Source: Candidatus Giovannonibacteria bacterium RIFCSPLOWO2_02_FULL_45_28
GTDB lineage: Bacteria; Patescibacteriota; Minisyncoccia; UBA11713; 2-01-FULL-45-33
Length of the DNA: 64,000 nt
NCBI GenBank assembly: GCA_001780725.1
Contig: MFIM01000028.1
Coordinates: forward strand, 10,368 to 74,367
Reading direction: 5' to 3'
Shown: one piece after another, positions 4,841 to 24,162 of the stretch
How positions within the stretch are numbered: the first letter of the stretch is position 1
Layout: the number at the start of each line of letters is the position of its first letter
The notes under the pieces: generated by a model
Databases searched by the model: none
Told to the model about the DNA's origin: nothing
Seen by the model: only the letters and a program-made list of their open reading frames with translations
Made by a program: the position numbers and the translations under genes

Positions 4841-5635
4841 TTATTCACCAGACTCACCTTTTATCAAAAGGTGCTGGGTCAACCCCGACCAGTCCTCTAA
4901 AGAAAGCTCCTCGGGGCGTCTATTGAATCTTGAATCATGAAGCATGAAGCTCGAATCACGCGTTTCATGTTTAATGTTACATGTTACATGTTTTAGGGAG
5001 TGGCGGAGCATTTTGCGCTTTTGCTGGAAGGCGATTTTGGCCAGCGCGAGGATTTGCTCCGACTTAGACGTCGGACGTCTAAGTGAAATTTTAATTATCG
5101 CCGAATCAACTTTTGGCGGAGGTGAAAATTGGCCTTTTGACACTTTGCGGATTATTTCAGGTTTTGCATAAAGTTGGACGGAAAGAGCCAAAAGATTCAT
5201 TTTCGGAGGTTTTGCGCAAATACGTTCCGCAACTTCTTTTTGGACCATCAGAACCATCAGTTTTGACCCAAACTCGGTTTGGGACAAAAATAGGCGTAAA
5301 AAACGGGAGGTGATGTAGTAGGGAAGGTTGGCGACCACTTTAAAATTTCCAATTTTCACTTTCCAATTTTCAATTTTTAAAATATCACCCTGAATTATCT
5401 CAACATTTTTATAATTTCGGAACCGCTCTCGCAAAATGGGAATTAATTCGCGGTCTTTTTCCACGGCAATAACCTTTTTGGCGCGCGCGGCCAAAATTTC
5501 CGTGAGTGATCCCAAACCCGGCCCCACTTCCAAAACAATATCGTTTTTGGAAATCTCCGCGGCGCGCGCCATTTCCTCCAAAATTTTTTTATTATTTAAA
5601 AAATGCTGGCCAAGGTGTTTTTTTCTATTCAACAT
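4841..5635 (-). CDS. rsmA: 16S rRNA (adenine1518/1519-N6) dimethyltransferase
   Basis: HLGQHFL, VLEVGPGLGSLTE and NLPYYI are KsgA/RsmA motifs. Confidence 0.85.
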   Translation of the reverse strand: MLNRKKHLGQHFLNNKKILEEMARAAEISKNDIVLEVGPGLGSLTEILAARAKKVIAVEKDRELIPILRERFRNYKNVEIIQGDILKIENWKVKIGNFKVVANLPYYITSRFLRLFLSQTEFGSKLMVLMVQKEVAERICAKPPKMNLLALSVQLYAKPEIIRKVSKGQFSPPPKVDSAIIKISLRRPTSKSEQILALAKIAFQQKRKMLRHSLKHVTCNIKHETRDSSFMLHDSRFNRRPEELSLEDWSGLTQHLLIKGESGE

Positions 5636-7493
5636 ATATATCTTCTTCTATTTCTTCGGGTTTATTTATATAAACCAGCAAGTGCTCCGGAATTTCAGCC
5701 AAAAACCGGGAAGGCTTGTTTGATGCTCTCTCACCGAAAATAATGCGCTGCGACGCGCAAGTAAGGTAAAGACGGTTTTTCGCGCGAGTCATCGCAACAT
5801 AGCACAGCCTCCTCTCTTCTTCTATATTCGCCGGTTCAAATGATAATATGTGCGGGAAAAGGCCTTCTTCCAAACCGACCACAAACACGGCTTCAAATTC
5901 CAAACCTTTCGCCGCGTGCATGGTCATTAAGTTGACTCTGCCGGTTTGGGAATCGTATCTATCATCAATCGCAAAAAGAGAAACGTGTTCTAAAAATTTA
6001 TCAACATCTTCCATTTGTTGCGCGAGGCCCAGCAATTCTTCTATGTTTTGCCACCTTTCCACTCCTTTTTCTGTGCCATCGTTAACATATTCGCGGTAGC
6101 CGATTTTGTGAATTATTTTTTTTAAAAATTCGTGCGGTTTCGTTCCGGCGCTCTCCGCGCGCAAACTTTCTATTAATTCGTCAAAATTTATCTTTTTTTT
6201 CTTGCGCGGAGGGACATTGGCGATTCTTTTATAGCTTATTTCATCGGCCGGATTTTGGATAAGCCGCAGATAAGCGACTAAATCTTTTATTTCTCGCCTT
6301 TCGTAAAAACGCACGCCGCCGATTATTTTATAAGGAATATTGCTGGCCAGAAAAACTTCTTCCAGCGCCCGCGATTGCGCGTTGGTCCGATAAAGAATAG
6401 CTATTTCCCCGGAGGGGATTTTGTCTTTCTGCATGGACGAAATTTCCGATGCCACCAGCTCTGCCTCGCGTTTTCCATTTTCCGCGAAAATCACGCGGAT
6501 TTGGCGCGAGCCCTGCCGCTTGGTCCAAAGATTTTTTGGCAGCCGCATTTTATTACGGACAATAACGGCGTTGGCCGCTTCCAAAATTATGTCCGTTGAA
6601 CGGTAATTTTCTTCCAAAGTAATTATTTTGGTTTCGGGATAATCTTTTTGGAAATTAAGGATATTTCTGAAATCCGCCCCGCGCCATGAATATATTGCCT
6701 GATCAACGTCGCCCACAACCAAAATGTTGCGGTGCCCGCCAGCCAAAAGCTTGGAGAGAACATATTGGACTTCGTTCGTGTCCTGATACTCGTCAATGTG
6801 TATGTAGCGCCAGCGCTCTTGGTATTTTTTTGATAAATCTGCGTCGCGCATAAGCAGCCGTGTCGGACGGAGCAGTAGATCGTCAAAATCCAGCAGGTTT
6901 TGTTTTTTGGTTTTTTCTTCATAGAGCAGCCAAACTTTTCCCAGCTGTCTTTCAAAAAAACTGCCCGCCTCGCCGTCGGGCGGGTTTTCTACAAATTCTC
7001 CCACCGATATTAGCTGGTTTTTAAGTCGCGAAATTTTATTTTTAATTCTTGAAGGATCAAATTCTTTCGGGTCAATTTTAAGTTCCAGCAAACATTCTTT
7101 TATTAATTTCAGCGAATCATCCTCGTCTAAAATGGTGAAATTTTTTCTAACCCCGATTTTTTCCAAATTCTCCCGTATTATCAAAAGTCCGAGCGCGTGA
7201 AATGTTCCTATGAATGGTTTGGAAATTGGAAATTGTAAATTGGAAATTGCGCGAATTGGCTCAATTCGCGTTCTCATTTCCCCAGCCGCCTTATTGGTGA
7301 AAGTAACGGCTAAAATTTTTTCCGGTCTCGCGCCTTTTGCTATCAGATATTTAATTCGTTCGGTGATAACCTTGGTTTTTCCGGCGCCGGCTCCTGCAAT
7401 CACCAAAACCGGCCCTTCGGTCGCTTCCACCGCCTCTTTTTGTTTGGAATTTAGCTTGTCTGCCGAAGAGGCGGGAGTTTCTTTGTCGGCCAT
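5625..7493 (-). CDS. pcrA: UvrD/PcrA/Rep-family ATP-dependent DNA helicase
   Basis: It carries Walker A AGAGAGKTKV, a TFTNKAA motif, a DEYQDTN (DExx) box, and helicase motifs V-VI (VGDVDQAIYSWRGA, MTMHAAKGLEF). Confidence 0.85.
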   Translation of the reverse strand: MADKETPASSADKLNSKQKEAVEATEGPVLVIAGAGAGKTKVITERIKYLIAKGARPEKILAVTFTNKAAGEMRTRIEPIRAISNLQFPISKPFIGTFHALGLLIIRENLEKIGVRKNFTILDEDDSLKLIKECLLELKIDPKEFDPSRIKNKISRLKNQLISVGEFVENPPDGEAGSFFERQLGKVWLLYEEKTKKQNLLDFDDLLLRPTRLLMRDADLSKKYQERWRYIHIDEYQDTNEVQYVLSKLLAGGHRNILVVGDVDQAIYSWRGADFRNILNFQKDYPETKIITLEENYRSTDIILEAANAVIVRNKMRLPKNLWTKRQGSRQIRVIFAENGKREAELVASEISSMQKDKIPSGEIAILYRTNAQSRALEEVFLASNIPYKIIGGVRFYERREIKDLVAYLRLIQNPADEISYKRIANVPPRKKKKINFDELIESLRAESAGTKPHEFLKKIIHKIGYREYVNDGTEKGVERWQNIEELLGLAQQMEDVDKFLEHVSLFAIDDRYDSQTGRVNLMTMHAAKGLEFEAVFVVGLEEGLFPHILSFEPANIEEERRLCYVAMTRAKNRLYLTCASQRIIFGERASNKPSRFLAEIPEHLLVYINKPEEIEEDIYVE

Positions 7494-8735: not shown

Positions 8736-9662
8736 GTGAAAATTAAGATTGGCAGGTTTGAGATTTATTCTCTGATGGACGGCTATTTTTGGCTGGATGG
8801 CGGAAGAATGTTCGCGGATCTGCCAAAGCTTAAATGGCAGACGATTTGCGTGCCGGATGATAACAACAGAATTCGGCTGGCCGCGAGATGCTATTTGATT
8901 AAGGGGCGCACGCTTACTCTTTTTGATACGGGCATGGGAAATCCGCCAGATCCAAAGTTCCCAAAATTTATGGGCGCTTCCTATTTGGATTTTTTTGGAA
9001 TTAATCAGAACGACGGCAACCTAATAATTAATCTAGAAAAAGCCGGTTTTGCCAAAGAAGACTTAAGATTTGTCACGCAAAGCCATTTACATCTTGATCA
9101 TTCTGGCTGGAACACATACACAAACGAAGAGAAAAAAATTGTGCCAGTTTTCCCAAACGCTGTTTATCTTATGGAGGATTGGGAGTGGCGGGCGGGAATG
9201 AACCCCCATCCTCGCCAGAAAGACAGTTATTTGAAAGAAAATTTTGTTCCGCTGGAAACCGCCGATTTGGACAACAAACTTAGATATTTGTGGAGGGTGA
9301 AGCACGATATAGACAAATGGGGGCGAACAAAAAACAAATTTCAACTGGAACCCGGCCTTACTTTTATAAGAACAGGCGGACACACCGATGGACATTGGGT
9401 GGCCCTAATTGAATCCGAAAACAAAAAAGCTTTTTTGGCCGGAGATTTGATTCCTACGCATAAGCATATAGTCCCGGGAAATTTAATGAGCTACGATTCA
9501 GATTTGAATAAAGTGTTTGGCGAAAAAATTAAATTTCTGACGAAGGCATGCCGCGAGAAGTGGCTGATTCTTTTTGACCACGACCCTGATTTTACAGGAG
9601 GTTATGTGGCCAAAAACCAAAAGGGACATTTTGAGTTTCACCCCTTTGAAGGAGGTGCGTAA
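8736..9662 (+). CDS. MBL-fold metallo-hydrolase
   Basis: An HxHxDH motif (SHLHLDHSGW) followed by downstream His/Asp ligands. Confidence 0.7.
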   Translation: MKIKIGRFEIYSLMDGYFWLDGGRMFADLPKLKWQTICVPDDNNRIRLAARCYLIKGRTLTLFDTGMGNPPDPKFPKFMGASYLDFFGINQNDGNLIINLEKAGFAKEDLRFVTQSHLHLDHSGWNTYTNEEKKIVPVFPNAVYLMEDWEWRAGMNPHPRQKDSYLKENFVPLETADLDNKLRYLWRVKHDIDKWGRTKNKFQLEPGLTFIRTGGHTDGHWVALIESENKKAFLAGDLIPTHKHIVPGNLMSYDSDLNKVFGEKIKFLTKACREKWLILFDHDPDFTGGYVAKNQKGHFEFHPFEGGA

Positions 9663-9844
9663 TGTTTTGGAGCAAATTGGCAAGTTTTTTGATGACCGTT
9701 GTTTGCTCAATGTCCTTTATGTATTTCCATGTTTTTTCGGTAGCGCGAAATTTTAGCCGCTGGTGGGAAATTGTTTTTCTCGGATTGGCGGTGGCTTCGG
9801 GTTTAGTTTTTCTTTGGATCCTTCAAGGAAAATTTGGGAACTAA
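9662..9844 (+). CDS. Small hydrophobic (two-TM) protein, translationally coupled
   Basis: A TAATG overlap with the upstream stop codon. The 60 aa product is hydrophobic. A terminator follows directly. Confidence 0.3.
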   Translation: MFWSKLASFLMTVVCSMSFMYFHVFSVARNFSRWWEIVFLGLAVASGLVFLWILQGKFGN

Positions 9845-9863
9845 GTTCCCAAGCGACGATCAT

Positions 9864-9892
9864 CGCCCCGATTGACTTTCGGGGCGTTTTTT
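9864..9892 (+). terminator. Rho-independent terminator
   Basis: CGCCCCG - attgacttt - CGGGGCG followed by TTTTTT. Confidence 0.6.
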
Positions 9893-9919
9893 CGCTAGGA
9901 TGCGGATAGAAAAGGAGAT

Positions 9920-11101
9920 GTGATGCAGTACAAAAAGGGGCTAAGGGGCTATATCGCCGGGCAGACGAGCATTTGCGAATTAAACGAGAAGACAAAACGG
10001 ATTACCTACAGAGGGCGTGATATTGAGACTCTTGCCGGAAAAGTTCCGTTTGAAGAGGTTGCCTACTTGCTATTGGGCTCCCGGCATGCGTCTTGGTTTG
10101 AACTTAATGAATTTAAAATTCGGGTGTGCACCTCTTTTTGTAGTTTCGGTTTGGGGAAGTGGGAGAAAGTTGCGGAAACACTCGCGGCTTTGCCGCCCGA
10201 AGCGCATTCCATGGAGCTTTTGAGGCATATAATTAACGCTTTCGCGATGTATGACGACAGGCGTAAGCCGCAAGATGAGGCGCATGACCGCGAGATTGCA
10301 ATAGATCTAGTAGGCCTTATGATTTATTTTGTCGCTTTGGTTCAAAGGCATAAAGAAGGCCTAAGCCCGTTGCTGATTATACCTTCCGACAAAGGATCGC
10401 TGGCGGCAAACATTTTTTATCTGCTTGGGAAAAAGCCTTCGCCGTTAGAAGTTGAGGTGATGGATGTGCTTTTTACACTGTACGCCGAGCACGAATTTAA
10501 CGGGAGCACCTTCGGTGGCGTGAGAATGGCGGCGACTTTGGATACGGATATTTATTCCGGAATGATTAATGGGGTCGGGAATCTCAAGGGTCTGCGCCAT
10601 GGAGGCGCGAATGAAGCCACATGGGGACTAATACAAAGCTTTGCGGATGTTGTGGACGTTGAAGACTATCTTTTAAAAAAAATCGGCGAGACTCTTGAGC
10701 AAAAAGCCGGTTGGAAAATGCCCGGATTCGGGCACGCGGTTTATAAAACCGGCGATGCCAGAGTGCCGATTATTAAAGATTACATATACAGGCTGTCTCG
10801 CGAAAAGAAAAATATGATCTACTTTGATATATGCTGTAAGATTGAACAAGCGATGCTGAAAGCTCACAGACTTTATCCGCTCAAAAAGTACCCGTCGTTT
10901 AGGTGGTGGTTTCCGAATATAGATTTTTGGGCGGCGCCGGTTTATTACTTGATGGGCATTCCTCATTATCTGAACACCCCGCTTTTTGCGGCATCGCGCA
11001 TCGCCGGATGGGCTGCCCATTGGATTGAGTGTAAATACGAACTCAAAGAAAAACTCATCCGCCCAAGAGCGAAGTATATAGGCCCAAAACCACAAACTTA
11101 G
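9920..11101 (+). CDS. prpC: Citrate synthase family protein, likely 2-methylcitrate synthase given its neighbours
   Basis: The citrate synthase signature GFGHAVYKTGDARVPIIKDY is present, plus the AEHEFNGSTF motif. It is followed by prpD and prpB homologues. An SD AAAGGAG precedes it; the start may be ATG 9923. Confidence 0.8.
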   Translation: MMQYKKGLRGYIAGQTSICELNEKTKRITYRGRDIETLAGKVPFEEVAYLLLGSRHASWFELNEFKIRVCTSFCSFGLGKWEKVAETLAALPPEAHSMELLRHIINAFAMYDDRRKPQDEAHDREIAIDLVGLMIYFVALVQRHKEGLSPLLIIPSDKGSLAANIFYLLGKKPSPLEVEVMDVLFTLYAEHEFNGSTFGGVRMAATLDTDIYSGMINGVGNLKGLRHGGANEATWGLIQSFADVVDVEDYLLKKIGETLEQKAGWKMPGFGHAVYKTGDARVPIIKDYIYRLSREKKNMIYFDICCKIEQAMLKAHRLYPLKKYPSFRWWFPNIDFWAAPVYYLMGIPHYLNTPLFAASRIAGWAAHWIECKYELKEKLIRPRAKYIGPKPQT

Positions 11102-11112
11102 TTTGGGGTTTT

Positions 11113-11361
11113 TTATTTATAGTGATTGTTAACGTCAATGATTTCTATTGTGTCTTTTTCTCGAAAAATAAAAATCGTCCGGTATTTGCGGTCAATTCGG
11201 AAACTCCAAATTCTAAGCGTCCGCGGTTCAAGAAGTTCTGTTTCCAAACTCGGATGAAACGGGTTGGATTCAAAAAATTGCTTTTGTTTTTCAAATTTAT
11301 TTTCAAGCTGTCGTTTACGCAAATATTCAACAAGGTCATAATGAAGCGGTAAAATTTTCAT
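11113..11361 (-). CDS. RelE/ParE-family type II toxin
   Basis: NPFHPSLETELLEPRTLRIWSFRIDRKYRTIFIFREKDTIEIIDVNNHY is a RelE/ParE core. Confidence 0.75.
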   Translation of the reverse strand: MKILPLHYDLVEYLRKRQLENKFEKQKQFFESNPFHPSLETELLEPRTLRIWSFRIDRKYRTIFIFREKDTIEIIDVNNHYK

Positions 11362-11364
11362 GAA

Positions 11365-11589
11365 CTAAGTTCTGAAATAGCTTGATCGCTTAAACCCTCT
11401 TTTTAAGCTTGCTAAAAATTTCTTGTTATATTTTTTTGTTGCTTCAAGGGAAAACATTATCTCTTTTATATTTTTTGTTGGCGGCGCGGCAAAAATGTTC
11501 TGCTCCATCAATTGGCGCAGATAATCATACCGAAGTCTTTTATCCACCAACTCTTCATATTCTTTTTTGGGTATGGTCACGGTTACCAT
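11365..11589 (-). CDS. Putative antitoxin
   Basis: A 74 aa ORF 3 nt upstream of the toxin. It shares the VTIPKKEYEE motif with the 1734..1991 ORF. Confidence 0.5.
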   Translation of the reverse strand: MVTVTIPKKEYEELVDKRLRYDYLRQLMEQNIFAAPPTKNIKEIMFSLEATKKYNKKFLASLKRGFKRSSYFRT

Positions 11590-11628
11590 AGTTAAATAAT
11601 AAGTTTATAAGGTCAATTTGTCACTATT

Positions 11629-11690
11629 GACAAGGATTTGAGGGTGTGACAAGCTTGAATCAGAAAAAGGGGGTAAATAACAATGTTTTG
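11629..11690. promoter_or_regulatory. Conserved TA-associated intergenic element, copy A
   Basis: Contains TGTCACTATTGACAAG, GGGTGTG, CTTGAATCAGAAAA and AAGGGGG. It aligns with 23859..23935. Confidence 0.5.
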
Positions 11691-11739
11691 TTTTGTGGTT
11701 TTTCTCGAATACGCCCGACGCACTTTTAGGAGAACTTAA
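11683..11739 (+). CDS. Tiny ORF (18 aa, MFCFVVFLEYARRTFRRT) behind a strong SD; speculative
   Basis: AAGGGGG, then 9 nt, then ATG. The peptide has a hydrophobic N-terminus and a basic tail. A terminator lies 70 nt downstream. Confidence 0.2.
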   Translation: MFCFVVFLEYARRTFRRT

Positions 11740-11808
11740 TTGCGGGGTGACAAAAACCCAAATTAAAGTAGAGAAAACCTATCTTATCACTGACTAGTTT
11801 GCACCAAA

Positions 11809-11838
11809 GCCGTCCGGAAATCCTGGCGGCGTTTTTTT
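11809..11838 (+). terminator. Rho-independent terminator ending a short plus-strand transcription unit
   Basis: GCCGTCCGG - aaat - CCTGGCGGC followed by GTTTTTTTA. Confidence 0.5.
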
Positions 11839-11893
11839 ATTTATTTGCCTTTCCTTCCGGTTTAGGTTAAAACGGACTTAGATTTGGAACGAT

Positions 11894-13276
11894 GTGATGG
11901 AATTAAATACAGCCAATTTGCTGGATTATCTGGCTGAATTTGCCTGCAATTTGAAATACGAAGATTTGCCGGAAGAGGTTGTGCGCGAAGCTAAAAGAAG
12001 AATTTTTGATTCTTTGGGGTGTTTGATTATGGGCGCGCGGCACGATGAAGCGGTGAAATTGGTGCGCCATGGGATGGCCGGAAAAGAGTGGCAGACGCAA
12101 CTTGTGAACGGCTTTGCCATCAGCATGGACGGCTCTTACTCTTTAGAAAACGCAGCTTATTTAAACACTCATAGTATCCGCGCCCTAGACTGGAATGACA
12201 CTTATTTGTCGCTGGAGCCCGCGCATCCGTCTGACAACATCGGCGCTATTTTGGCTTTGGCAGGAGTCTGTAGCGGGAAAGAATTGATCACGGCTTCGGT
12301 TTTGGCATACGATATTCAATGCAGATTTTGCGATGCGTTTTCTTTGCGGAAAGAAGGCTGGGATCATGTCGGATATCTTGAGATCTCTTCTGCTTTGGCG
12401 ACCGGGAAAATTATGAGGCTTGATTTCAAAAAAATGCGCCATGCCGCCTCGCTCGCATTGCGATTTTCGTTTTTGCGGCAGATAAGAGCCGGCAATTCGC
12501 TCTCCAACGCCAAAGGGCTTTCCGCCGCGGAGGCGGTTATGTTGGGCGTTCATTCTGTTTTGGAAGCAAGCTGGGGCGTGACAGGACCGGAAGAAATTTT
12601 AGAAGGCGAGTGCGGTTTTATAAAACAATGCGCCGGAGAACAAAAATTTGAAGTCGGCGCGTTTGAAAATTTGGGGTCTGATTTTAAACTTTTTACCACG
12701 CACATCAAATTTTTTCCGGTTGAATACCACGCGCAATCCGCCGTCTGGTCTGCGCTGGGACTCCGTGAAATGTTGGGAGGTGGCGCGGACACCGAAAAAA
12801 TAAAAGAGATTAAAATCATATCATCGGAAGCCGCAAAAAATATTATTGGCGGCGAGCAAAAAAAGGAAGTTAAAACGAAGGAGTCCGCCGATCATTCCAT
12901 TTTTTACATTACGGCTGTGGTTTTGGCGGACGGCGAGCTGACTTTAAAACAATACGATCCAATCCGGTTTTCTGATCCGAAAATCATTTCGCTGATGGAT
13001 TTGATGACGATTCAGGAGTCGCCGAATTATTCGCGAGCGTATTGTTTTAAAATGGCGCCCGAATTCGGCGTTACTCTGGTTTGCAGAATGAGGAACGGAG
13101 AGTTGTGCGTGTCCGGAGAGCATGTATATCCCAAGGGCCACTTCGCCAACCCCTTGAGCGATAAAAAGCTTAAAAACAAATTTGGAGAGCCGATGGACTG
13201 GTTGGACTTTGTCTGGAGCCTGGAAAAATTAAATGCAAAAGATCTCTATTGGATTTTGCGGGATCTAAAAGTATGA
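11894..13276 (+). CDS. prpD: MmgE/PrpD-family 2-methylcitrate dehydratase
   Basis: A 460 aa MmgE/PrpD-like protein sitting between the citrate-synthase-like and PrpB-like genes. Confidence 0.8.
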   Translation: MMELNTANLLDYLAEFACNLKYEDLPEEVVREAKRRIFDSLGCLIMGARHDEAVKLVRHGMAGKEWQTQLVNGFAISMDGSYSLENAAYLNTHSIRALDWNDTYLSLEPAHPSDNIGAILALAGVCSGKELITASVLAYDIQCRFCDAFSLRKEGWDHVGYLEISSALATGKIMRLDFKKMRHAASLALRFSFLRQIRAGNSLSNAKGLSAAEAVMLGVHSVLEASWGVTGPEEILEGECGFIKQCAGEQKFEVGAFENLGSDFKLFTTHIKFFPVEYHAQSAVWSALGLREMLGGGADTEKIKEIKIISSEAAKNIIGGEQKKEVKTKESADHSIFYITAVVLADGELTLKQYDPIRFSDPKIISLMDLMTIQESPNYSRAYCFKMAPEFGVTLVCRMRNGELCVSGEHVYPKGHFANPLSDKKLKNKFGEPMDWLDFVWSLEKLNAKDLYWILRDLKV

Positions 13277-14163
13277 ACCTTAAAGAATTAATTGGCGCAA
13301 AAAAGCACCTGGTTCTCGTGGGCGTTACAGAGCCGATAGAAGCTCTCATAGTGAAAGCCGCAGGATTCAAAGCGGCTTACATTTCCGGTGCGGCTCTTTC
13401 AACCAAATTGGGTTTTTTGGACGAGGGGCTGATCAGTTTGGAAAAAATGGTTCAGGTGGTGAGCGATATCATAAAAGCGTCCGATTTGCCTCTTTTGGTT
13501 GATTGCGATACCGGACTTTGGTCTTCCGATTCGGAGGACTTTCAAAAAAAAGAAAGCCCGGAGGCGCAGAAAGAAATGGCGCACGCCATGATGCATCTTC
13601 TTGCTGACGCCGGAGCGGACGCTGTTCAGATAGAAGATCAGGCTCCCGCAAAAAAGAGATGCGGGCATCTTTCGGGAAAAGAGCTGGTTTCAATGAACGA
13701 TATGTTTTGGAAAATCAAAATGCTGGCTTATTGGAGAAAAAACAGAGATCAAGTAATAGTTGCGCGCACAGACGCGCGGGCGGTGGAGGGATTGGACGGC
13801 GCAATTTTCCGTGCTCACCGCTACATAAACGCCGGAGCGGATGCTATTTTTCCGGAAGCGCTGGAATCTTTGGAAGAATTTAAAGAATTCCGCCGCCAAG
13901 TCCCGAAAGTCCCGCTTGTTGCAAACTCGGCCGAATGCGGCAGAACTCCTCCATTTAATGCCGATCAGCTTTTCAGCGCTGGCTACCGGATTGTTTTAAT
14001 CCCGGCGACGCCTTTTCGGATGATGCTCCGCACTTTTAGAGACGCTTTGCAAGAAATAAAAACTTTTGGCTCCCTGAATTTCGCTGTTGAAAACGACGAA
14101 TTGATTTCAAGAACCGAACTGAATAAATTTATAAAAAAACATTCAAAAGTTTATAAAAAATGA
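13273..14163 (+). CDS. prpB: PEP mutase/isocitrate lyase superfamily protein, likely 2-methylisocitrate lyase
   Basis: The start overlaps the prpD stop (ATGA). It carries the ICL/PEPM family catalytic motif (KRCGH, ...EDQ..KKRCGHL...). Confidence 0.8.
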   Translation: MNLKELIGAKKHLVLVGVTEPIEALIVKAAGFKAAYISGAALSTKLGFLDEGLISLEKMVQVVSDIIKASDLPLLVDCDTGLWSSDSEDFQKKESPEAQKEMAHAMMHLLADAGADAVQIEDQAPAKKRCGHLSGKELVSMNDMFWKIKMLAYWRKNRDQVIVARTDARAVEGLDGAIFRAHRYINAGADAIFPEALESLEEFKEFRRQVPKVPLVANSAECGRTPPFNADQLFSAGYRIVLIPATPFRMMLRTFRDALQEIKTFGSLNFAVENDELISRTELNKFIKKHSKVYKK

Positions 14164-14195
14164 CCCCCTTGCTATTTAAGCTAAGGGGGTTTTAT
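14164..14195 (+). terminator. Intrinsic terminator after prpB
   Basis: CCCCCTT - loop - AAGGGGG followed by TTTTATT. Confidence 0.45.
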
Positions 14196-14218
14196 TATGG
14201 GGTCAGAACGCTTGAGAA

Positions 14219-16279
14219 TTGCATATGCCTAAATCCTCGGATTTTACACCGACCCGCAAGATCTTTGTCCCGACAAAAGAAGAACACATCCGGATGTACA
14301 AGCTTTTACTCCTAACTTCTGTTTTGGGCAGGGAGCTTGACAGAAGAAAAGATGAATTTGAACCCATTAAAATTTTCACTGGCATCGGCCAAGAAGCTAT
14401 TTATGTAGGTTCGGTTTCAGCCGCGGAGAAATACGATTGGTTCGCGCCGGACCATCGCGCCATGGGCGTGCTTTTGGGCAGGGGACTTACGCCCAAAGAG
14501 ATCATCTGCCAGGACGGCGCTTTTGCGGAGTCAATATATAGCGGATATAATTTCGGCATTCACATAGGAAGCCCGGAGCACCACTTGATTCGCTTTGAGT
14601 CTGATATGGCGCTGAATGTCGCTGTGGGCACGGGACTTATTGACGCTGTTTACTACACCCGCGATATTATTGAAAAAAAATCTTCCGACGAAAATCCGGT
14701 ATTGCTCGCTTATTTGGGAGACGGCGCGTCCGCGCACGGCAACGCGCATTCCGCTTTTCTTTTTGCTTCAACTAGAAAGCTTCCCGCACTATTTTTTATA
14801 AATAACAACGGTTATGCCATAAAAACGCCGGTGGAATACCAGCGGGCGCTGGCACGATTGGGCAGAATCGCGGAAGGTTACGGTATGAAGTTTTTGGTTG
14901 TTGACGGAAACAATGTTTGGAATGTGTGGAACGCAACTAAAATGGCGCTTGATGATATCAGAAACGACGGCGGACCGTGGATAATAGAATGCTGCACTTT
15001 TCGGGTATCAGGGCATAATGCCCACGAAACTTCTGAGATGTCCAGTTATGTTCCAAGAGATCTTCGTCTGGAATGGTTAGGCGAAGATCCGCTTGAGCAC
15101 TATAGCTTGAAGCTCAAGCTAATGAGATTTTTGGATGATGAGAGCGAAAAAATTTTTAGGATAGAGGCGGAAGAAAAAATCGCAGAAGCTTTCAGTGCCA
15201 TGAAAGCCTTTTCTCCTCCTTCAAAACTTCATCCTGTTTTCGCCCCCAGAAACACTGCCATTTTAACCACGCCAAAGACCTCCGAGAGAATACTAACTTA
15301 TAGCGCAGCAATCAACGAAGCCTTACGGCAGGCAATGGAAATGGATCTCGCAGTAAGGATTTTTGGGGAAGATGTTGAAAATGGCGGAGTGCACGGTGTC
15401 ACCAAAAAGCTTAATAAGCAATTCGGCAAAGAAAGGATTTTTCATACTTCTCTGGATGAGAATGGAATTTTTACTTATGCGATTGGCATGGCGCTGGCCG
15501 GGCTCAAGCCTTCGCCGGAAGTTCAGTTTCTCCCGTTTTTAAAGTATGCTTTCGGACCAGTGTCGAATTATCTTGCGACGCATCACGCAGTTACCGGTCA
15601 GGGATTGTCGGTAGTTATGCGAGCTCCGGCAGGCGGCGGATTTATTTCAAACAACTGCCACCAAGAAATGATTGAAGCAATGCTGGCGCACGGCGGAGGC
15701 ATTAAGATTGTTTGCCCATCAACGCCTTATGCTGCAAAAGGTTTACTCATGGCATCGTTTCGTGATGGCAACCCGGTGCTTTTTGTAGAACAAATTTCTC
15801 ACTACGGCAAAAAGGGCGAAGTGCCAGAGGAGCCGTATGAAATACCGATTGGCGAAGCAAAAACATTGTTGGAAGGCAGAGACATTTCAATTATTACTTA
15901 CGGAGCGATGATGGTTGAGCGGACATTGAAAGCGGCGGAGGCGCTGGCCAAGGAAGGTATTTCTGCGGAAATTATTGACTTGCAGACGATCGTACCAATG
16001 GACAGAGAAGCTGTTTTGTGTTCCGTGACCAAAACCGAAAGAGCGCTTATAGTCCACGAAGCCAAAACCAAATTCGGAGTTGGCGCGGAAATCGCAAGCA
16101 TGATCGGCGCTTATGTCAGCGAAGTGAGGCGGGATATAAAAGAAATGTCCGATTTCTTTGTTGCAACAAAAGTTCTTGGCGCGAAAGACGGGCCGGTTAC
16201 GGCGCATCCAGCGTTGGAGGTCTTGCGCTTGCCGCAAGTCGAAGATATAGTAGCGGCAGCAAAGGAGATGGCGCGATGA
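14219..16279 (+). CDS. 2-oxoacid dehydrogenase E1 component, fused alpha-beta
   Basis: The N-terminal half carries the TPP motif (YLGDGASAHGNAHSAFLFAS...NNNGYAI). The C-terminal half is transketolase-like beta (FGEDV..GGVHGVT...). Confidence 0.85.
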   Translation: MHMPKSSDFTPTRKIFVPTKEEHIRMYKLLLLTSVLGRELDRRKDEFEPIKIFTGIGQEAIYVGSVSAAEKYDWFAPDHRAMGVLLGRGLTPKEIICQDGAFAESIYSGYNFGIHIGSPEHHLIRFESDMALNVAVGTGLIDAVYYTRDIIEKKSSDENPVLLAYLGDGASAHGNAHSAFLFASTRKLPALFFINNNGYAIKTPVEYQRALARLGRIAEGYGMKFLVVDGNNVWNVWNATKMALDDIRNDGGPWIIECCTFRVSGHNAHETSEMSSYVPRDLRLEWLGEDPLEHYSLKLKLMRFLDDESEKIFRIEAEEKIAEAFSAMKAFSPPSKLHPVFAPRNTAILTTPKTSERILTYSAAINEALRQAMEMDLAVRIFGEDVENGGVHGVTKKLNKQFGKERIFHTSLDENGIFTYAIGMALAGLKPSPEVQFLPFLKYAFGPVSNYLATHHAVTGQGLSVVMRAPAGGGFISNNCHQEMIEAMLAHGGGIKIVCPSTPYAAKGLLMASFRDGNPVLFVEQISHYGKKGEVPEEPYEIPIGEAKTLLEGRDISIITYGAMMVERTLKAAEALAKEGISAEIIDLQTIVPMDREAVLCSVTKTERALIVHEAKTKFGVGAEIASMIGAYVSEVRRDIKEMSDFFVATKVLGAKDGPVTAHPALEVLRLPQVEDIVAAAKEMAR

Positions 16280-16539
16280 GTCTCGTTGAAATTCATGTCA
16301 CCTTTCAGACCTTTGAAGAGGAGAAAACTGAAGCCAAATTCAAGGTTCTGGATATATTGGTTAGCGTTGGACAGTTTGTCAGAAAAGAAGATGGATTGGT
16401 TACGATTGAGACGGAAAAAGCTACGTTTGACTTTGAATCGCCGGTTGAAGGCTCAATAAAAGAAATCTTTTTAAAAGAAGATCCGGCGCAGGAATATTCC
16501 CACGGTACGTTGTTTTGCACAATCGAGGCTTCGCCATGA
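16276..16539 (+). CDS. Free-standing lipoyl-domain protein
   Basis: ATGA overlap with the E1 stop. It carries the lipoyl-lysine motif TIETEKATFDFESPVEGSIKEI. Confidence 0.7.
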   Translation: MSLVEIHVTFQTFEEEKTEAKFKVLDILVSVGQFVRKEDGLVTIETEKATFDFESPVEGSIKEIFLKEDPAQEYSHGTLFCTIEASP

Positions 16540-17204
16540 AAACGCAAAAGCCATCCTTGCTTAGGCAGGCTACGGCGAAATATTTGACGAAATCGCAGAG
16601 TATTCCTTTTACTCCGATTTGGACGAGCGCCGATGTATCCAAACTGCTTGAAATCCGCGCAGTTTCGCGCCACAAGTTCAGTGCGATGCTTCTTTATTTA
16701 CTTGCAGAATCTTTGCTTCGGATGCCGGAGATGAATATCGGTTGGGAAGAAAAAGAATCACAAATTATTTTGTACGACACTTTGAATCTCGGCATTTCGT
16801 TAAACACAAAAGACGACGATGTCGTGGTGGCACGGATTGCGGAATCGAATCGCAAAAACATCAGCCAACTCAATAGCGCAATCTCGGAACTAGAGGAAAA
16901 AGCGAAGACTACTGGCAAAATACTGGAAAAAGATATTTTCCCGTTACCAAACATTGTTCTTAATAACGCTGGAATGATGGACATAGAAGGAGGCGTGCCG
17001 ATACCGCTTCCGTGGAACGCGCTTATGGTGACAACGTTTACAGTTAAGCGGATGCCGGTTGCTGATCCACATAAGCCTTGGGCCATTGGCGTTCTGCCAA
17101 TGATGAACGTTGTTTTAACTTTCGATCACCGTCTTTTTGACGGCGCGAAAGCGGCGAAATTTCTCGCACTATTTAAACAAAGACTAGAAAACCCCCGTTT
17201 TTAA
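16536..17204 (+). CDS. 2-oxoacid dehydrogenase E2 acyltransferase catalytic domain only
   Basis: ATGA overlap with the lipoyl gene. The C-terminus reads LTFDHRLFDGAKAAKF (the DHRxxDG catalytic motif). Confidence 0.75.
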   Translation: MKTQKPSLLRQATAKYLTKSQSIPFTPIWTSADVSKLLEIRAVSRHKFSAMLLYLLAESLLRMPEMNIGWEEKESQIILYDTLNLGISLNTKDDDVVVARIAESNRKNISQLNSAISELEEKAKTTGKILEKDIFPLPNIVLNNAGMMDIEGGVPIPLPWNALMVTTFTVKRMPVADPHKPWAIGVLPMMNVVLTFDHRLFDGAKAAKFLALFKQRLENPRF

Positions 17205-17593
17205 CGAGGGTTTTTAATTTGGTTGAGTTCCGGGCTGTAAAAAAGGCTGCCGGACGGTTTGCCGCAATAAGGGCACGGCCATTTAACTTCGTACTGAAAA
17301 ACATGCTTTCCGGATAAGCTGCTTTGCAGCCACTTGATGTTATATTCCTCGTCAGGCAACATGGGCCCCAAAATGCGCACAACTTTTCCTTTAGGAAAAT
17401 AATTTTTATTATAGCGGTCGCAGTGATATTGTTCTCGCCATTTTATCAAATCGCCCAGGCGAAAACCCTTTTCTTCTACAGGCTTCGCCTCGCATTTCAA
17501 CGCGCTTCTTTTGTTTCTGTATCTCGTCTTGCATTTTTTGCACACATAAGTAAATCGCACTCTTCTTGGCAAAACTTCTCTGATAGTTTTCAC
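17201..17593 (-). CDS. Hypothetical zinc-ribbon protein
   Basis: Two CxxC pairs (CKKCK ... CPYCGK). There is no recognisable family match. Confidence 0.4.
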   Translation of the reverse strand: MKTIREVLPRRVRFTYVCKKCKTRYRNKRSALKCEAKPVEEKGFRLGDLIKWREQYHCDRYNKNYFPKGKVVRILGPMLPDEEYNIKWLQSSLSGKHVFQYEVKWPCPYCGKPSGSLFYSPELNQIKNPR

Positions 17594-18309
17594 AAAGGCA
17601 TCCTTTCGCTTCTGGGTTTATGGTATCGCGAAATCAGTTCTGTGGCAAGCTTGATTTTTATCTCGTCTTTTTCTGATTCGGAAAAACTTTTTACGTTTAA
17701 TTCTTCGGCCATAGAAGTTATGCGCACGTCCTTAAGACCGCAGGGAATCAGCGGCTCTAAATACTTTTCTTCCGGATCTAAAGAAACCGTCATGCCGTAT
17801 CTTGTAACGCCGCGCGAGATTTGGAGACCAACAGAGGCAATCTTTTTTTCTTTGCCGATATAAAGGCCGGGGTTATCTTTTCTGCGCCGAGTTTCTACGC
17901 CGTAAGTTTTCAAACATGCGGCGGCGGAATCTAAAAGCGCGTTCTCAAAGTTTGATATAGACATGTTTTTTATTTCAAAAATACAATAAACCGAAAGAAT
18001 GCCGGGGCCCTGATAGGTTACAAGTCCGCCGCGCCCGATTATTTCAATGGGCGCCGGAAGTTCCCAAATTTCTTTTTTAAAACAGCGCTGAATACCGGCT
18101 AGGTTTTTTGCCAGCGAAGCGCCAGCAGTGTAAACCGGCTCATGTTCAACAAAAATTAGCTGGTCATTTTCCTTGTTTTTGAAAACCTTTTCTGCCCAAT
18201 ATTCATCTTGTATTGCCACAGCTTTTTTAATTGGGAAATTTACGCCCCAGTCTTCAATTTGAAAATACATATGTAAAACGCGTCTCTTTTTTGAGCTTAA
18301 TCCCGCCAT
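17590..18309 (-). CDS. lipB: Lipoyl(octanoyl) transferase
   Basis: HEPVYTAG, RGGLVTYQGPG and KIASVG are LipB motifs. Confidence 0.8.
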   Translation of the reverse strand: MAGLSSKKRRVLHMYFQIEDWGVNFPIKKAVAIQDEYWAEKVFKNKENDQLIFVEHEPVYTAGASLAKNLAGIQRCFKKEIWELPAPIEIIGRGGLVTYQGPGILSVYCIFEIKNMSISNFENALLDSAAACLKTYGVETRRRKDNPGLYIGKEKKIASVGLQISRGVTRYGMTVSLDPEEKYLEPLIPCGLKDVRITSMAEELNVKSFSESEKDEIKIKLATELISRYHKPRSERMPL

Positions 18310-21247: not shown

Positions 21248-21266
21248 GCACTAATCCAATTTAATT

Positions 21267-21668: not shown

Positions 21669-21783
21669 TCTTTGTTTCTCCTTCTGCCAAGAAAGATAAC
21701 ATAGTAGTCAATACTTTGTCAATAGTGCGTTGTAAATTACAAATGCTATATTGTTTGCAGAAATTAAGGAGGACGAATTGACG

Positions 21784-23331: not shown

Positions 23332-23598
23332 TTATTTACGATAAATATCTTTTCTGTGCCGGACTTCCAGCAATAAAATTATTTCGTTATCAATGATTCT
23401 GAAGATACACCTATAATCGCGGCCGATCCTAAAAGCCAAAAAGCCCTCCAATGAGCCAGTGAGATATTTAGTATGAAGCAGTGGATGATAAAAGTTTTCT
23501 TCCAATAATTTTAAGAGCTTGGCCAAATGTTCAAGCTCTCTATTTTCGAGTTTGTTGGCAGATTTTTGAAAGGCGGAGCCGTAAATAAGCGCTGGCAC
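23332..23598 (-). CDS. RelE/ParE-family type II toxin
   Basis: YHPLLHTKYLTGSLEGFLAFRIGRDYRCIFRIIDNEIILLLEVRHRKDIY. Confidence 0.7.
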   Translation of the reverse strand: MPALIYGSAFQKSANKLENRELEHLAKLLKLLEENFYHPLLHTKYLTGSLEGFLAFRIGRDYRCIFRIIDNEIILLLEVRHRKDIYRK

Positions 23599-23601: not shown

Positions 23602-23826
23602 TTACTTTATTGATCGGACGTGCTTAATAAAATTTTCTGGCGCTGTAAATCTATATAGTTTTTTGGGCCTTTCTGCGGCCAGCCTTAAAATTCTGCGTAC
23701 AAAAGACGGTTTATACTCTCCTTCGGGATCGCGGAGCACTAAAAGAACCGCGCTTTTTAAAAACTCTGTTTCTTTGCGCAATTCTTTTACCTCGTGATAA
23801 ATTTTTTCCGCGGTTTGGATAGTCAT
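23602..23826 (-). CDS. Putative antitoxin
   Basis: A 74 aa ORF 3 nt upstream of the toxin on the same strand. Confidence 0.45.
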   Translation of the reverse strand: MTIQTAEKIYHEVKELRKETEFLKSAVLLVLRDPEGEYKPSFVRRILRLAAERPKKLYRFTAPENFIKHVRSIK

Positions 23827-23858
23827 ATGCCTTTTATACTATCTTACTCGCCCCAAAC

Positions 23859-23935
23859 TGTCACTATTGACAAGATTAGCGGTTGGGTGTATACTTGAAA
23901 CAGAAAATTTGATAGAAAAGGGGGAGGATAATATG
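23859..23935. promoter_or_regulatory. Conserved TA-associated intergenic element, copy B, with a consensus plus-strand promoter
   Basis: The same 16-mer TGTCACTATTGACAAG opens the element. TTGACA (23867-72), a 17 nt spacer and TATACT (23890-95) form the promoter. CTTGAAACAGAAAA and AAGGGGGAGG are followed by ATG. Confidence 0.5.
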
Positions 23936-23980
23936 ACAAACACGCGCTATGGTATGGCTTGTTTGATCGGCACGTTATAA
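23933..23980 (+). CDS. Tiny ORF (15 aa, MTNTRYGMACLIGTL) behind a strong SD; speculative
   Basis: GGGGGAGG, then 6 nt, then ATG. It sits downstream of a near-consensus promoter. Confidence 0.2.
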   Translation: MTNTRYGMACLIGTL

Positions 23981-24162
23981 ATAATGCTCTCAGTTATTTT
24001 TAAGGGGGTGTTAATTTGTAGATTTTTTCTAAATATTTAGTTCGTTAAGAATCATATATTCTTTGCTCTTTGAATTTCTTATTGTTATAAATATATTTCA
24101 TATTATTCCCCCCTTAAGGTAAGGGGGTTAGGGGGGTTATGAAATGTAAGAGGGGGGCGTTA

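What the first reader, a model, noticed from the sequence alone, without database searches (positions are those of the whole stretch)
11629..11690. Conserved palindrome-containing element present twice, each divergently upstream of a toxin-antitoxin operon
Two intergenic regions, 11629-11690 and 23859-23935, share four blocks:
- an identical 16-mer TGTCACTATTGACAAG;
- GGGTGTG / GGGTGTA;
- CTTGAA(T/A)CAGAAAA;
- AAGGGGG followed by ATG.

The 16-mer holds a perfect inverted repeat, TGTCA-N4-TGACA, overlapping a consensus -35 hexamer TTGACA. In copy B this -35 is followed, after a 17 nt spacer, by TATACT, a near-consensus promoter firing away from the TA genes. On the other side, 33-40 nt from the 16-mer, sits the start codon of the antitoxin gene of a RelE/ParE TA pair. 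The two antitoxins belong to different families. The element is therefore unlikely to be a simple autoregulatory operator. It looks like a shared divergent promoter/operator unit or the boundary of a duplicated cassette.

A partial third copy of the core, CACTATTGACAA, lies at 21717-21728 upstream of the pilin gene.
Basis: seen in the sequence. Interest (0 to 1): 0.7.

Follow-up and report, generated by a model that had tools for sequence, protein, structure and literature searches.

The report
Duplicated two-way promoter beside toxin-antitoxin genes
The repeated "palindrome element" is a two-way promoter plus the dead 5' end of a small membrane-protein gene. It is present twice in this Candidatus Giovannonibacteria (candidate phyla radiation, CPR) genome, and in relatives the same promoter core sits in front of at least four unrelated toxin-antitoxin pairs or the pnp gene, so it is an ordinary kind of feature with a modestly interesting history.

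Summary
The 16-mer TGTCACTATTGACAAG occurs exactly twice (11619-11634, 23859-23874). Both copies continue with collinear blocks: GGGTGT, CTTGAAWCAGAAAA at the same 19-nt offset, a Shine-Dalgarno (SD) sequence and an ATG.

The palindrome is two -35 hexamers placed back to back, 2 bp apart.
- **P(-)**: GTGACA-17 nt-TATTAT/TAGTAT, ending 6-9 nt before the antitoxin ATG.
- **P(+)**: TTGACA-17 nt-CAAGCT/TATACT.

Homologous copies in other Candidatus Giovannonibacteria genomes identify both sides.
- In L038 the core lies between pnp and an intact 154-aa membrane-protein gene ("ORF154").
- In L049 it lies between pnp and a different 81-aa gene.
- In L022 and L036 the P(-) side drives HicAB and DUF4258/DUF2283 pairs.

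Window copy B is the copy at the rpsO-NYN locus that is syntenic with those relatives. Its 15-codon ORF is the decayed N-terminus of ORF154. Copy A arrived with its toxin-antitoxin (TA) pair as a roughly 0.7-kb insertion between prpC and the prpC terminator; a relative (L053) keeps the empty site.

The element is therefore not a TA-specific operator, not an RNA family and not a widespread repeat. The "third copy" is only the -35 region of a different promoter family. I rate it a new member of a known kind, of moderate interest.

The parts
11619..11634 (.). Copy A core 16-mer TGTCACTATTGACAAG. It holds the two back-to-back -35 hexamers: minus GTGACA 11624->11619 and plus TTGACA 11627-11632.
11596..11624 (-). 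P(-)A: GTGACA-17 nt-TATTAT. The -10 box ends 6 nt before the antitoxin A ATG (11589), so the TA-A mRNA is inferred to be leaderless or nearly so.
11627..11655 (+). P(+)A: TTGACA-17 nt-CAAGCT with TG at -15/-14. It is homologous to the ORF154 promoter of L038 (TTGACA-17-TAAGCT).
   Evidence: (76.6% over 47 nt, E = 3e-5)
11656..11739 (+). Copy A 5' UTR (the CTTGAATCAGAAAA block spans 11654-11667, overlapping the last 2 nt of the -10 box), SD GGGGG at 11669-11673, ATG at 11683 and an 18-codon ORF with no homolog. It is read as the relic start of the plus-side gene.
   Evidence: no significant similarity downstream of the ATG
11365..11589 (-). Antitoxin A (74 aa, no Pfam family).
11113..11361 (-). 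Toxin A (82 aa). Weak, sub-threshold matches to HigB, YoeB and ParE, all RelE/ParE superfamily.
11807..11845 (+). Hairpin terminator GCCGTCCGGAAATCCTGGCGGC followed by T7ATTT. It is the resident prpC terminator and marks the outer limit of the right end of the inserted module A.
23859..23874 (.). Copy B core 16-mer, with minus -35 GTGACA 23864->23859 and plus -35 TTGACA 23867-23872.
23836..23864 (-). P(-)B: GTGACA-17 nt-TAGTAT. The spacer gtttggggcgagtaaga is homologous to the pnp promoter spacer of L038 and L049. The -10 box ends 9 nt before the antitoxin B ATG (23826).
23867..23895 (+). P(+)B: TTGACA-17 nt-TATACT.
   Evidence: 11 of 12 consensus positions
23896..24001 (+). Copy B 5' UTR (the CTTGAAACAGAAAA block spans 23894-23907, overlapping the last 2 nt of the -10 box), SD GGGGGAGG, ATG at 23933 and the decayed N-terminal remnant of ORF154 (MTNTRYGMACL-IGTL*...). 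The first 30 nt are 23/30 identical, in frame, to intact L038 ORF154. A 24-nt deletion and a stop codon follow.
23602..23826 (-). Antitoxin B (74 aa, no significant Pfam family).
23332..23598 (-). Toxin B (88 aa, ParE_toxin PF05016, 29.7 bits against a cutoff of 23).
21716..21727 (-). The 'third partial copy' CACTATTGACAA. It is the -35 region of the pilin gene promoter and belongs to another promoter family that also includes 51443-51481. It is not part of the element.
   Evidence: D8

Best explanation
The element is a compact bidirectional sigma-70-type promoter region. Two -35 hexamers sit back to back, 2 bp apart, on opposite strands, and that geometry is what makes the TGTCA-N4-TGACA palindrome.

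**Minus side, P(-).** The promoter is [G/C]TGACA-17 nt-TAnnAT. In L038 and L049 this promoter drives pnp (polynucleotide phosphorylase) in the rpsO-NYN-pnp region of Candidatus Giovannonibacteria (Parcubacteria, CPR); whether that is the ancestral arrangement is inferred. In this genome it drives two different TA operons. Their start codons lie 6-9 nt after the -10 box, so the transcripts are inferred to be leaderless.

**Plus side, P(+).** The promoter is TTGACA-17 nt-TAnnCT. It is followed by a short A/G-rich 5' UTR, an SD sequence and an ATG. Together these are the expression signals of a small membrane-protein gene ('ORF154', with GLxxGL repeats). That gene is intact in one relative and has decayed to a 5' stump in copy B. 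In copy A nothing recognisable remains beyond the ATG.

**The two window copies are paralogs.** Copy B sits at the rpsO-NYN locus that is syntenic with the relatives. Copy A was inserted together with TA pair A, as a roughly 0.7-kb piece, between prpC and the prpC terminator. There its outward P(+) promoter faces prpD.

**Shown.** Sequence homology of the copies, promoter geometry, the identity of genes on both sides in relatives, the pseudogene remnant and the empty site.

**Inferred.** Promoter activity, leaderless translation, the direction of the event (insertion rather than deletion), and why P(+) stays intact after its gene died.
For: **Promoter geometry.** Consensus scans find both promoters in both copies. 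Ten P(-)-type promoters from six genomes all have exactly 17-nt spacers and A2/T6 in the -10 box.

**Genes on both sides in relatives.**
- L038: the core TGTCAGTATTGACAAG lies between pnp and an intact 154-aa ORF that ends at a hairpin terminator.
- L049: the same core lies between pnp and a different 81-aa gene.
- L022 and L030: the core precedes HicB/HicA.
- L036: the core precedes DUF4258/DUF2283.

**Synteny of copy B.** Window 23840-29633 is syntenic with L030. Coding DNA is 75-82% identical, while the element is 90% identical over 72 nt. Its core is near-identical in the alignment.

**Pseudogene.** tblastn of ORF154 hits window 23933-24001 and reads through a stop codon. The DNA alignment shows in-frame identity followed by a deletion.

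**Loci without the core.** NYN-pnp loci that carry neither a TA pair nor a plus-side gene lack the core: L032, L040 and L043-45.

**Copy A as an insertion.** L053 has prpC-85 nt-prpD. Its hairpin terminator and the sequence downstream are collinear with window 11807-11900.

**No RNA family or structure.** Rfam gave only sub-threshold hits, and fold z-scores were -1.05 and -1.24.
Against: - No transcript data exist, so promoter use and leaderless starts are inferred from consensus matches only.
- P(+), the SD sequence and the ATG stay intact in copies whose ORF is dead (B, L022, A). The core of B against L022 is far better conserved than the flanking coding DNA. A plain relic promoter does not explain that, so some extra constraint or recent exchange is implied.
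- The P(-) spacer of copy A and the roughly 125 nt downstream of its ATG match nothing. The origin of copy A is therefore inferred from only about 50-60 nt of homology.
- The source species is absent from genome contigs, and the metagenome pattern deliberately excluded A- and B-type left flanks. The rest of the source genome therefore went unsearched, and further copies cannot be excluded.
Confidence: 0.78

Rival explanations
1. The palindrome TGTCA-N4-TGACA is an operator for a host transcription factor, or for a shared feature of the TA complexes, that co-regulates both divergent units. The sequence is conserved because of protein binding rather than because of the two -35 boxes.
For: - Both 5-bp arms are invariant in all six copies, while the centre varies (CTAT or GTAT).
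- In the B-type copies, conservation extends through the P(+) spacer. The B and L022 cores are near-identical while coding DNA is 75-82% identical.
- P(+) is kept although its gene is dead.
Against: - Twelve of the 16 positions are already explained by two functional -35 hexamers with correct 17-nt spacing to -10 boxes.
- The same core serves pnp, four unrelated TA families and two different plus-side genes, so no cognate antitoxin can be the binder.
- The type-1 spacer P(-) promoter also occurs with only the left arm, as in the L038 hicBA promoter.
- No other copy of the palindrome occurs in the 64-kb window, so there is no sign of a regulon.
Confidence: 0.1
2. The core plus a TA pair is a small mobile cassette. 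The conserved core, or the conserved hairpin terminator, acts as the recombination or landing site where cassettes are exchanged, in an integron-like or site-specific way.
For: - At least four different TA modules occupy the same position, starting 6-13 nt after the P(-) -10 box.
- The plus-side cargo also varies: ORF154 or an 81-aa gene.
- Copy A with TA-A is an insertion relative to the L053 empty site.
- One 22-nt hairpin-terminator family recurs next to these modules and after unrelated genes.
- In L038 the P(+)-less hicBA promoter ends exactly at TGACA.
- A tyrosine recombinase gene lies about 1.1 kb away in the syntenic loci.
Against: - There are no attC-like sites, no clear terminal inverted repeats and no target-site duplication. 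Only weak, low-complexity matches were found.
- The recombinase looks like the conserved housekeeping XerC/D next to rpsO, and it is present in loci without the element.
- The element was not found in viral contigs. In the genome and metagenome pattern scans it was found in only one other organism.
- The hicBA block, from the hairpin terminator through its P(-) promoter, is 84.6% identical between L022 and L038 although its position relative to the P(+)-ORF154 segment differs. That fits duplication followed by differential loss as well as it fits mobility.
Confidence: 0.1
3. The plus-strand transcript is itself functional, as a small RNA or as a short peptide (15-18 aa), for example a third component acting on the neighbouring TA system.
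For: - P(+), the 5' UTR block CTTRAAWCAGAA, the SD sequence and the ATG are kept in all copies, including those with a dead ORF.
- Copy A ends at a strong terminator about 180 nt downstream.
Against: - There is no Rfam family, and no fold better than shuffled sequence.
- The short ORFs are not conserved. They are 18, 15 and 6 codons in A, B and L036, and in L022 the frame stays open past 90 codons.
- Sequence downstream of about +25 diverges to noise between B and L022.
- In L038 and L049 the same signals simply express ordinary protein genes.
Confidence: 0.05

Closest known systems
Back-to-back divergent (bidirectional) sigma-70 promoters in bacterial intergenic regions
   Same: There are two -35/-10 pairs on opposite strands, each with a 17-nt spacer. 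The upstream regions overlap, and genes start on both sides at sensible distances.
   Different: The two -35 hexamers are only 2 bp apart, which creates a perfect 5+5 palindrome. The core has been duplicated within the genome. It is retained across species while the genes on both sides are replaced.
Type II toxin-antitoxin autoregulatory operators (antitoxin-bound palindromes overlapping the TA promoter)
   Same: A palindrome overlaps the -35 box of the TA promoter, immediately upstream of an antitoxin-toxin operon.
   Different: The same palindrome precedes four unrelated TA families and also pnp. It therefore cannot be a cognate antitoxin operator. Any antitoxin-specific operator would have to lie in the non-conserved 29-32 nt between the palindrome and the ATG.
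Integron platform (the integron's cassette promoter, Pc, expressing exchangeable promoterless cassettes)
   Same: Functionally analogous: a fixed promoter with different small cassettes placed directly downstream. Most of these cassettes lack their own leader.
   Different: There are no attI or attC sites, no intI-type integrase specific to the locus and no cassette array. There is one cassette per promoter.
rpsO-pnp intergenic regulatory region of other bacteria (own knowledge: E. coli pnp has its own promoter and a structured, RNase III-processed leader)
   Same: In L038 and L049, P(-) is a dedicated pnp promoter downstream of rpsO(-NYN), with a 5' UTR of roughly 95-105 nt.
   Different: Here an NYN-domain gene sits between rpsO and pnp. 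The region is a hotspot for TA pairs and other small genes. In the window genome pnp is no longer at this locus.
Leaderless TA mRNAs (own knowledge: in Mycobacterium tuberculosis, leaderless transcripts are enriched for TA modules, Cortes et al. 2013)
   Same: All five TA operons seen here start 6-13 nt after the -10 box. Four have no SD sequence; TA-B has a weak AAAGG 3 nt before its ATG.
   Different: This is only inferred from promoter geometry. The lineage is CPR, and no transcription-start mapping exists.

Membership tests
Bidirectional sigma-70-type promoter | -35 and -10 hexamers with a 16-18 nt spacer on each strand | tested here: met
   - Copy A: GTGACA-17-TATTAT on the minus strand; TTGACA-17-CAAGCT on the plus strand, with an extended TG, read from the sequence.
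- Copy B: GTGACA-17-TAGTAT on the minus strand and TTGACA-17-TATACT on the plus strand.
- All ten P(-) promoters examined have 17-nt spacers.
Bidirectional sigma-70-type promoter | Real genes start at appropriate distances on both sides | tested here: met
   - TA genes start 6-13 nt after the -10 box, and pnp follows a 5' UTR of roughly 95-105 nt.
- On the plus side, intact ORF154 in L038 and the 81-aa gene in L049 each have an SD sequence and an ATG.
Bidirectional sigma-70-type promoter | Mapped transcription start sites or promoter activity | not testable with these tools
   No transcriptome data were available.
Type II TA autoregulatory operator | A palindrome that overlaps the TA promoter | tested here: met
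   TGTCA-N4-TGACA overlaps the P(-) -35 box.
Type II TA autoregulatory operator | An operator specific to, and co-varying with, its cognate antitoxin family | tested here: not met
   The same palindrome arms precede antitoxin A, antitoxin B, HicB, the DUF4258/DUF2283 pair and pnp; the central base differs in the two pnp copies.
Structured RNA family (riboswitch, sRNA or leader) | A match to a curated covariance model, or a fold better than shuffled sequence | tested here: not met
   - No Rfam hit reached the gathering score. The best sub-threshold hits had E values of 0.5-7.7.
- Fold z-scores were -1.05 and -1.24.
Integron / cassette platform | attC-type recombination sites flanking the cassettes, and an intI gene next to attI/Pc | tested here: not met
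   - No inverted-repeat sites flank the TA cassettes beyond weak low-complexity matches.
- The nearby tyrosine recombinase is also conserved next to rpsO in loci without the element.
Dispersed repeat / MITE | Many copies at unrelated positions, with terminal inverted repeats and target-site duplications | tested here: not met
   - There are two copies in the 64-kb window.
- The genome-contig scan gave 14 hits, 13 of them in unrelated phyla (about 23 expected by chance on my own estimate) and one real.
- There were no hits in viral contigs.
- The metagenome scan found only the L022 organism.
- No convincing terminal inverted repeats or target-site duplications were found.
- The rest of the source genome could not be scanned.
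RelE/ParE-superfamily type II TA pairs (the flanking genes) | A toxin matching a RelE/ParE-superfamily profile, preceded by a small antitoxin gene | tested here: inconclusive
   - Toxin B passes the ParE_toxin cutoff (29.7 bits against 23).
- Toxin A has only sub-threshold HigB, YoeB and ParE hits (E = 4.5e-4 to 6.5e-3), but it is 36% identical to toxin B.
- Neither antitoxin has a Pfam family.

The most novel reading that the evidence does not exclude
The back-to-back promoter core, possibly together with the recurrent GCCGTCCGGAAATCCCGGCGGC hairpin terminator, could be a portable expression platform or landing pad in streamlined CPR genomes. On this reading, small accessory cassettes (TA pairs of any family, small membrane proteins) are swapped in directly under a ready-made promoter by a site-directed mechanism acting at or next to the palindrome. 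The platform can then copy itself to new loci, as in the prpC-prpD insertion.
Probability: 0.1. Interest if true: 0.65.

Novelty: new member of a known kind. Interest (0 to 1): 0.35.

Why it matters
The result turns a puzzling conserved palindrome into an interpretable feature: a bidirectional promoter plus a gene relic. That guards against annotating it as a TA operator, an sRNA or a repeat family.

The side result is a small, well-delimited case of accessory-gene turnover in a CPR lineage. One promoter core is kept while pnp, four TA families and two small genes alternate around it. One copy has also moved with a TA pair into a propionate-metabolism operon, where its outward promoter may now feed prpD.

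This gives concrete, testable material for two questions. One is how TA modules acquire expression signals. The other is how reduced genomes reuse promoters. It does not reveal a new class of element.

Tried and rejected
- **Rfam and folding.** I ran Rfam on the whole window at gathering score and on both copies at E <= 10. Only weak hits far below threshold appeared. Single-sequence folds of both plus-strand transcripts were no better than shuffles.
- **Viral contigs.** Zero hits.
- **Genome-contig scan.** 13 of 14 hits were in unrelated phyla, in line with the roughly 23 I expected by chance. The source species is not in that collection.
- **Metagenome scan.** I used a pattern built to skip strain copies of A and B. 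It found only the L022 organism.
- **Strain variation.** Fifteen loci from the same population were 100% identical, so they carried no information.
- **Copy A downstream sequence as a relic.** I first thought the 34-aa ORF ending KTYLITD* and the 11807-11845 hairpin were the 3' end and terminator of ORF154. I then considered that 11740-11806 was a relic pnp promoter. Local alignments against all candidates scored no better than shuffles. L053 showed that the hairpin is the resident prpC terminator. Both ideas were dropped.
- **Precise-deletion model.** I considered that the pnp-proximal promoters of L022, L032 and L036 are exact deletions of P(+)-ORF154. Their spacer (ccgctaaatctaaagaa) is not homologous to the type-1 spacer, so the model stays unproven.
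- **Terminal inverted repeats around module A.** Only short, low-complexity matches were found.
- **ORF154 homologs elsewhere.** L047 and L048 have ordinary promoters without the palindrome, so the core does not travel with that gene family in general.
- **Literature.** A search on Patescibacteria and toxin-antitoxin, and one follow-up look inside the top-ranked paper from it, found nothing on this locus.

Full report
**1. Observation**

The 16-mer TGTCACTATTGACAAG is present exactly twice, at 11619-11634 and 23859-23874, both on the + strand.

Exactly 19 nt after each 16-mer lies CTTGAA(T/A)CAGAAAA (11654 and 23894). These are the only mismatch-free matches in the window. GGGTGT, AAAAGGGGG and an ATG (11683 and 23933) follow.

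A single repeated 16-mer in 64 kb is roughly what chance gives, by my estimate. The collinear blocks at identical spacing are not (blastn E = 9e-5). Homologs in other genomes remove any doubt.

The flanking minus-strand genes are two TA pairs.
- Toxin B passes the ParE_toxin cutoff. Toxin A has only weak HigB, YoeB and ParE hits.
- The toxins are 36% identical over 45 aa.
- The two 74-aa antitoxins show no similarity.

**2. Anatomy**

The palindrome TGTCA-N4-TGACA consists of two -35 hexamers on opposite strands, 2 bp apart.

| Promoter | Copy A | Copy B |
|---|---|---|
| P(-), minus strand | GTGACA-17-TATTAT | GTGACA-17-TAGTAT |
| P(+), plus strand | TTGACA-17-CAAGCT (TG at -15/-14) | TTGACA-17-TATACT |

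- The P(-) -10 boxes end 6 nt (A) and 9 nt (B) before the antitoxin ATG.
- P(+) is followed by a short A/G-rich leader, an SD sequence and an ATG.
- TTGACAA-type -35 boxes occur at many other intergenic sites in the window.
- No Rfam family matches, and neither plus-strand transcript folds better than shuffled sequence.

**3. Source and relatives**

Exact-protein look-ups place the window in Rifle aquifer metagenomes and in two NCBI MAGs. NYN-protein homologs name the lineage as Candidatus Giovannonibacteria.

A pattern scan of one genome per species gave 14 hits. Thirteen were in unrelated phyla, in line with the roughly 23 I expected by chance, and one was real: Parcubacteria bacterium GW2011_GWC1_45_13 (L022). 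The core of its copy is nearly identical to copy B. It sits at the same rpsO-NYN locus, but next to HicB/HicA rather than a ParE-type pair.

L030, a contig from the same organism as L022, is syntenic with window 23840-29633. Coding DNA is 75-82% identical, and the element is 90% identical over 72 nt. Synteny ends exactly at the TA pair.

Walking the NYN locus through other species gave these states.

| Locus | Minus side of the core | Plus side of the core |
|---|---|---|
| L036 | DUF4258/DUF2283 pair | near-intact ORF154 with an in-frame TGA at codon 7 |
| L038 | pnp | intact 154-aa membrane-protein gene (ORF154) ending at a hairpin terminator |
| L049 | pnp | a different 81-aa gene |
| L032, L040, L043-45 | no core; NYN is followed directly by pnp | no core |

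- L036 has the exact 16-mer. L038 and L049 have the variant TGTCAGTATTGACAAG.
- A table of ten P(-) promoters shows invariant 17-nt spacing.
- A shared 'type-1' spacer (tttttgg.cgggtaaga) links the pnp promoters of L038 and L049 to the TA promoters of window B, L022 and L036.
- TA start codons lie 6-13 nt after the -10 box, whereas pnp has a leader of roughly 95-105 nt.

**4. What the plus-side blocks are**

ORF154 of L038 begins MTNKRYGVACLRIGLL. Copy B's 15-codon ORF is MTNTRYGMACLIGTL*.

tblastn aligns window 23933-24001 to ORF154 residues 1-24 and reads through the stop codon. At the DNA level the first 30 nt are 23/30 identical and in frame. A 24-nt deletion and decay follow.

The AAGGGGG-ATG block is therefore the ribosome-binding site and start codon of a gene that has died here.

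ORF154 is a rare family, with seven homologs in 5.8 billion sequences. Members at other loci have ordinary promoters without the palindrome.

**5. Origin of copy A**

Copy A is more diverged from copy B than the copies in L022 and L036 are. In its -10 box (aAGCT) and short leader it resembles the L038 version.

Another Giovannonibacteria genome (L053; PrpD 60% identical) has the same lactamase-prpC-prpD-prpB-E1-E2 cluster, but only 85 nt lie between prpC and prpD. Those 85 nt consist of the hairpin GCCGTCCGGAAATCCCGGCGG followed by T7ATTT, then sequence collinear with window 11846-11900.

So the window's 11807-11845 hairpin is the resident prpC terminator. TA-A plus element A, from about 11095 to at most 11806, is extra DNA inserted between prpC's last codons and that terminator. 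The prpC C-terminus is altered at the left junction.

The 125 nt between the copy A ATG and the hairpin match nothing. For that reason I withdrew my earlier idea that they are an ORF154 3' relic.

**6. Mechanism**

Best explanation (confidence about 0.78): this is a bidirectional promoter whose minus arm expresses the adjacent TA operon as a leaderless or near-leaderless mRNA. Its plus arm once expressed ORF154.

Copy B now leads into a pseudogene stump that converges on the NYN gene. Copy A leads through the prpC terminator toward prpD.

- **Shown:** homology, geometry, gene identities, the pseudogene and the empty site.
- **Inferred:** promoter activity, leaderless starts and the direction of the insertion.

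One point is unexplained. P(+), its leader, the SD sequence and the ATG remain intact, and the B and L022 cores are far better conserved than the flanking coding DNA, although the ORF is dead. Three candidate reasons are:
- a contribution of the upstream half to P(-) activity;
- selection for divergent transcription itself;
- recent exchange between genomes.

**7. Rivals**

- **Operator for a host factor (about 0.1).** The arms are invariant, but they are already accounted for by the two -35 boxes. The type-1 spacer P(-) promoter also occurs with only one arm (L038 hicBA). No other copy of the palindrome occurs in 64 kb.
- **Mobile cassette or landing pad (about 0.1).** The varied cargo on both sides and the prpC-prpD insertion fit this rival. 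Against it, there are no att-like sites, terminal inverted repeats or target-site duplications, and no viral copies. The block from the hairpin terminator through hicA and hicB to the P(-) promoter is 84.6% identical between L022 and L038, although it sits on opposite sides of the P(+)-ORF154 segment in the two genomes. That fits an ancestral tandem duplication with reciprocal loss as well as it fits mobility.
- **Functional plus-strand sRNA or peptide (about 0.05).** The short ORFs are not conserved, and there is no structure signal.

**8. Comparison with known systems, and verdict**

The element works like any divergent sigma-70 promoter pair. It resembles a TA operator only in position, and it fails the cognate-specificity test. 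It resembles an integron Pc platform only by analogy.

It is a new member of a known kind. It is real and correctly spotted, and its most intriguing features (the palindrome and the shared blocks) have ordinary explanations. Residual interest lies in the TA turnover under one promoter in a CPR lineage and in the promoter-carrying insertion into the prp operon.

Noticed in passing
window 8736-23316; L053 1-11371: A Candidatus Giovannonibacteria (CPR) genome carries a large propionate/acyl-CoA cluster. It includes citrate/methylcitrate synthase, PrpD, a PrpB-like lyase, 2-oxoacid dehydrogenase E1/E2 with lipoate ligase, methylmalonyl-CoA mutase with MeaB, and an acyl-CoA dehydrogenase. Part of the cluster (metallo-beta-lactamase-fold gene, prpC, prpD, prpB, 2-oxoacid dehydrogenase E1/E2 and the lipoate ligase) is also in another Giovannonibacteria genome (PrpD 60% identical). 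This is unusual for such reduced genomes.
   Followed up: partly
window 11807-11845; L022 6805-6842; L032 ~4580-4616; L036 ~5002-5035 and ~6081-6119; L038 ~4490-4525; L053 4917-4950: One hairpin terminator sequence, GCCGTCCGGAAATCCCGGCGGC followed by T7ATTT, recurs at about 86-91% identity after unrelated genes and in different genomes. It follows prpC and ORF154, and it sits next to the pnp promoter. L049 has a more divergent version after its 81-aa gene. In three of the five TA loci (L022, L036, L038) the last TA gene ends AAATAA or GAATAA inside this hairpin's T-run. The two window toxins end the same way, but against other convergent terminators. Terminators are not normally conserved in sequence like this.
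   Followed up: partly
L038 4526-4990 (-); L036 ~5060-5472 (-); P0122-P0127: ORF154 is a rare family, with 7 homologs found. Members are small membrane proteins of about 150 aa with a conserved WSLFAPVPD motif and long GLxxGL repeat tracts. There is no Pfam family. The L036 copy has an in-frame TGA at codon 7 and a 12-codon N-terminal deletion, yet 127 further codons are intact.
   Followed up: partly
window 21692-21730 (-) and 51443-51481 (-): Two promoters share about 72% identity over 39 nt (ACGCRCTRTTGACAA...TATGTTATCTTT). One is upstream of the type IV pilin-like gene (21267-21668). The other is upstream of a 135-aa ORF (51012-51419). They form a second family of homologous promoters in the same window.
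   Followed up: no
window ~24098-24160; L036 (between the NYN stop codon and DUF559); L049 ~4730-4760: A C-run/G-run hairpin lies immediately downstream of the NYN stop codon, for example CCCCCCTTAAGGTAAGGGGGTTAGGGGGG. It is conserved in form across species, and its function is unknown.
   Followed up: no
L036 4555-4920; L049 4384-4743; L034 4574-5237; L038/L039 (hicBA directly after NYN): The rpsO-NYN-pnp interval is a general hotspot for small accessory genes in Giovannonibacteria. These include a DUF559 endonuclease-like gene and HicAB, ParE-type and DUF4258/DUF2283 pairs, in different combinations in each species. In the window genome pnp has left the locus altogether.
   Followed up: partly
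window 26950-26990: Another intergenic region has overlapping divergent -35 boxes (CTTGTCAAG...TTGACAA). It lies between tRNA-Arg (26996, + strand) and the 187-aa gene 25956-26519 (- strand). Each side has TATAAT at a 17-nt spacing.
   Followed up: no
window 11086-11113 vs 11692-11702 and 11752-11769: Short inverted matches lie near the ends of the inserted TA-A/element A module: 11 nt perfect, and 18 nt at 78%. Both are low in complexity and not significant on their own.
   Followed up: partly
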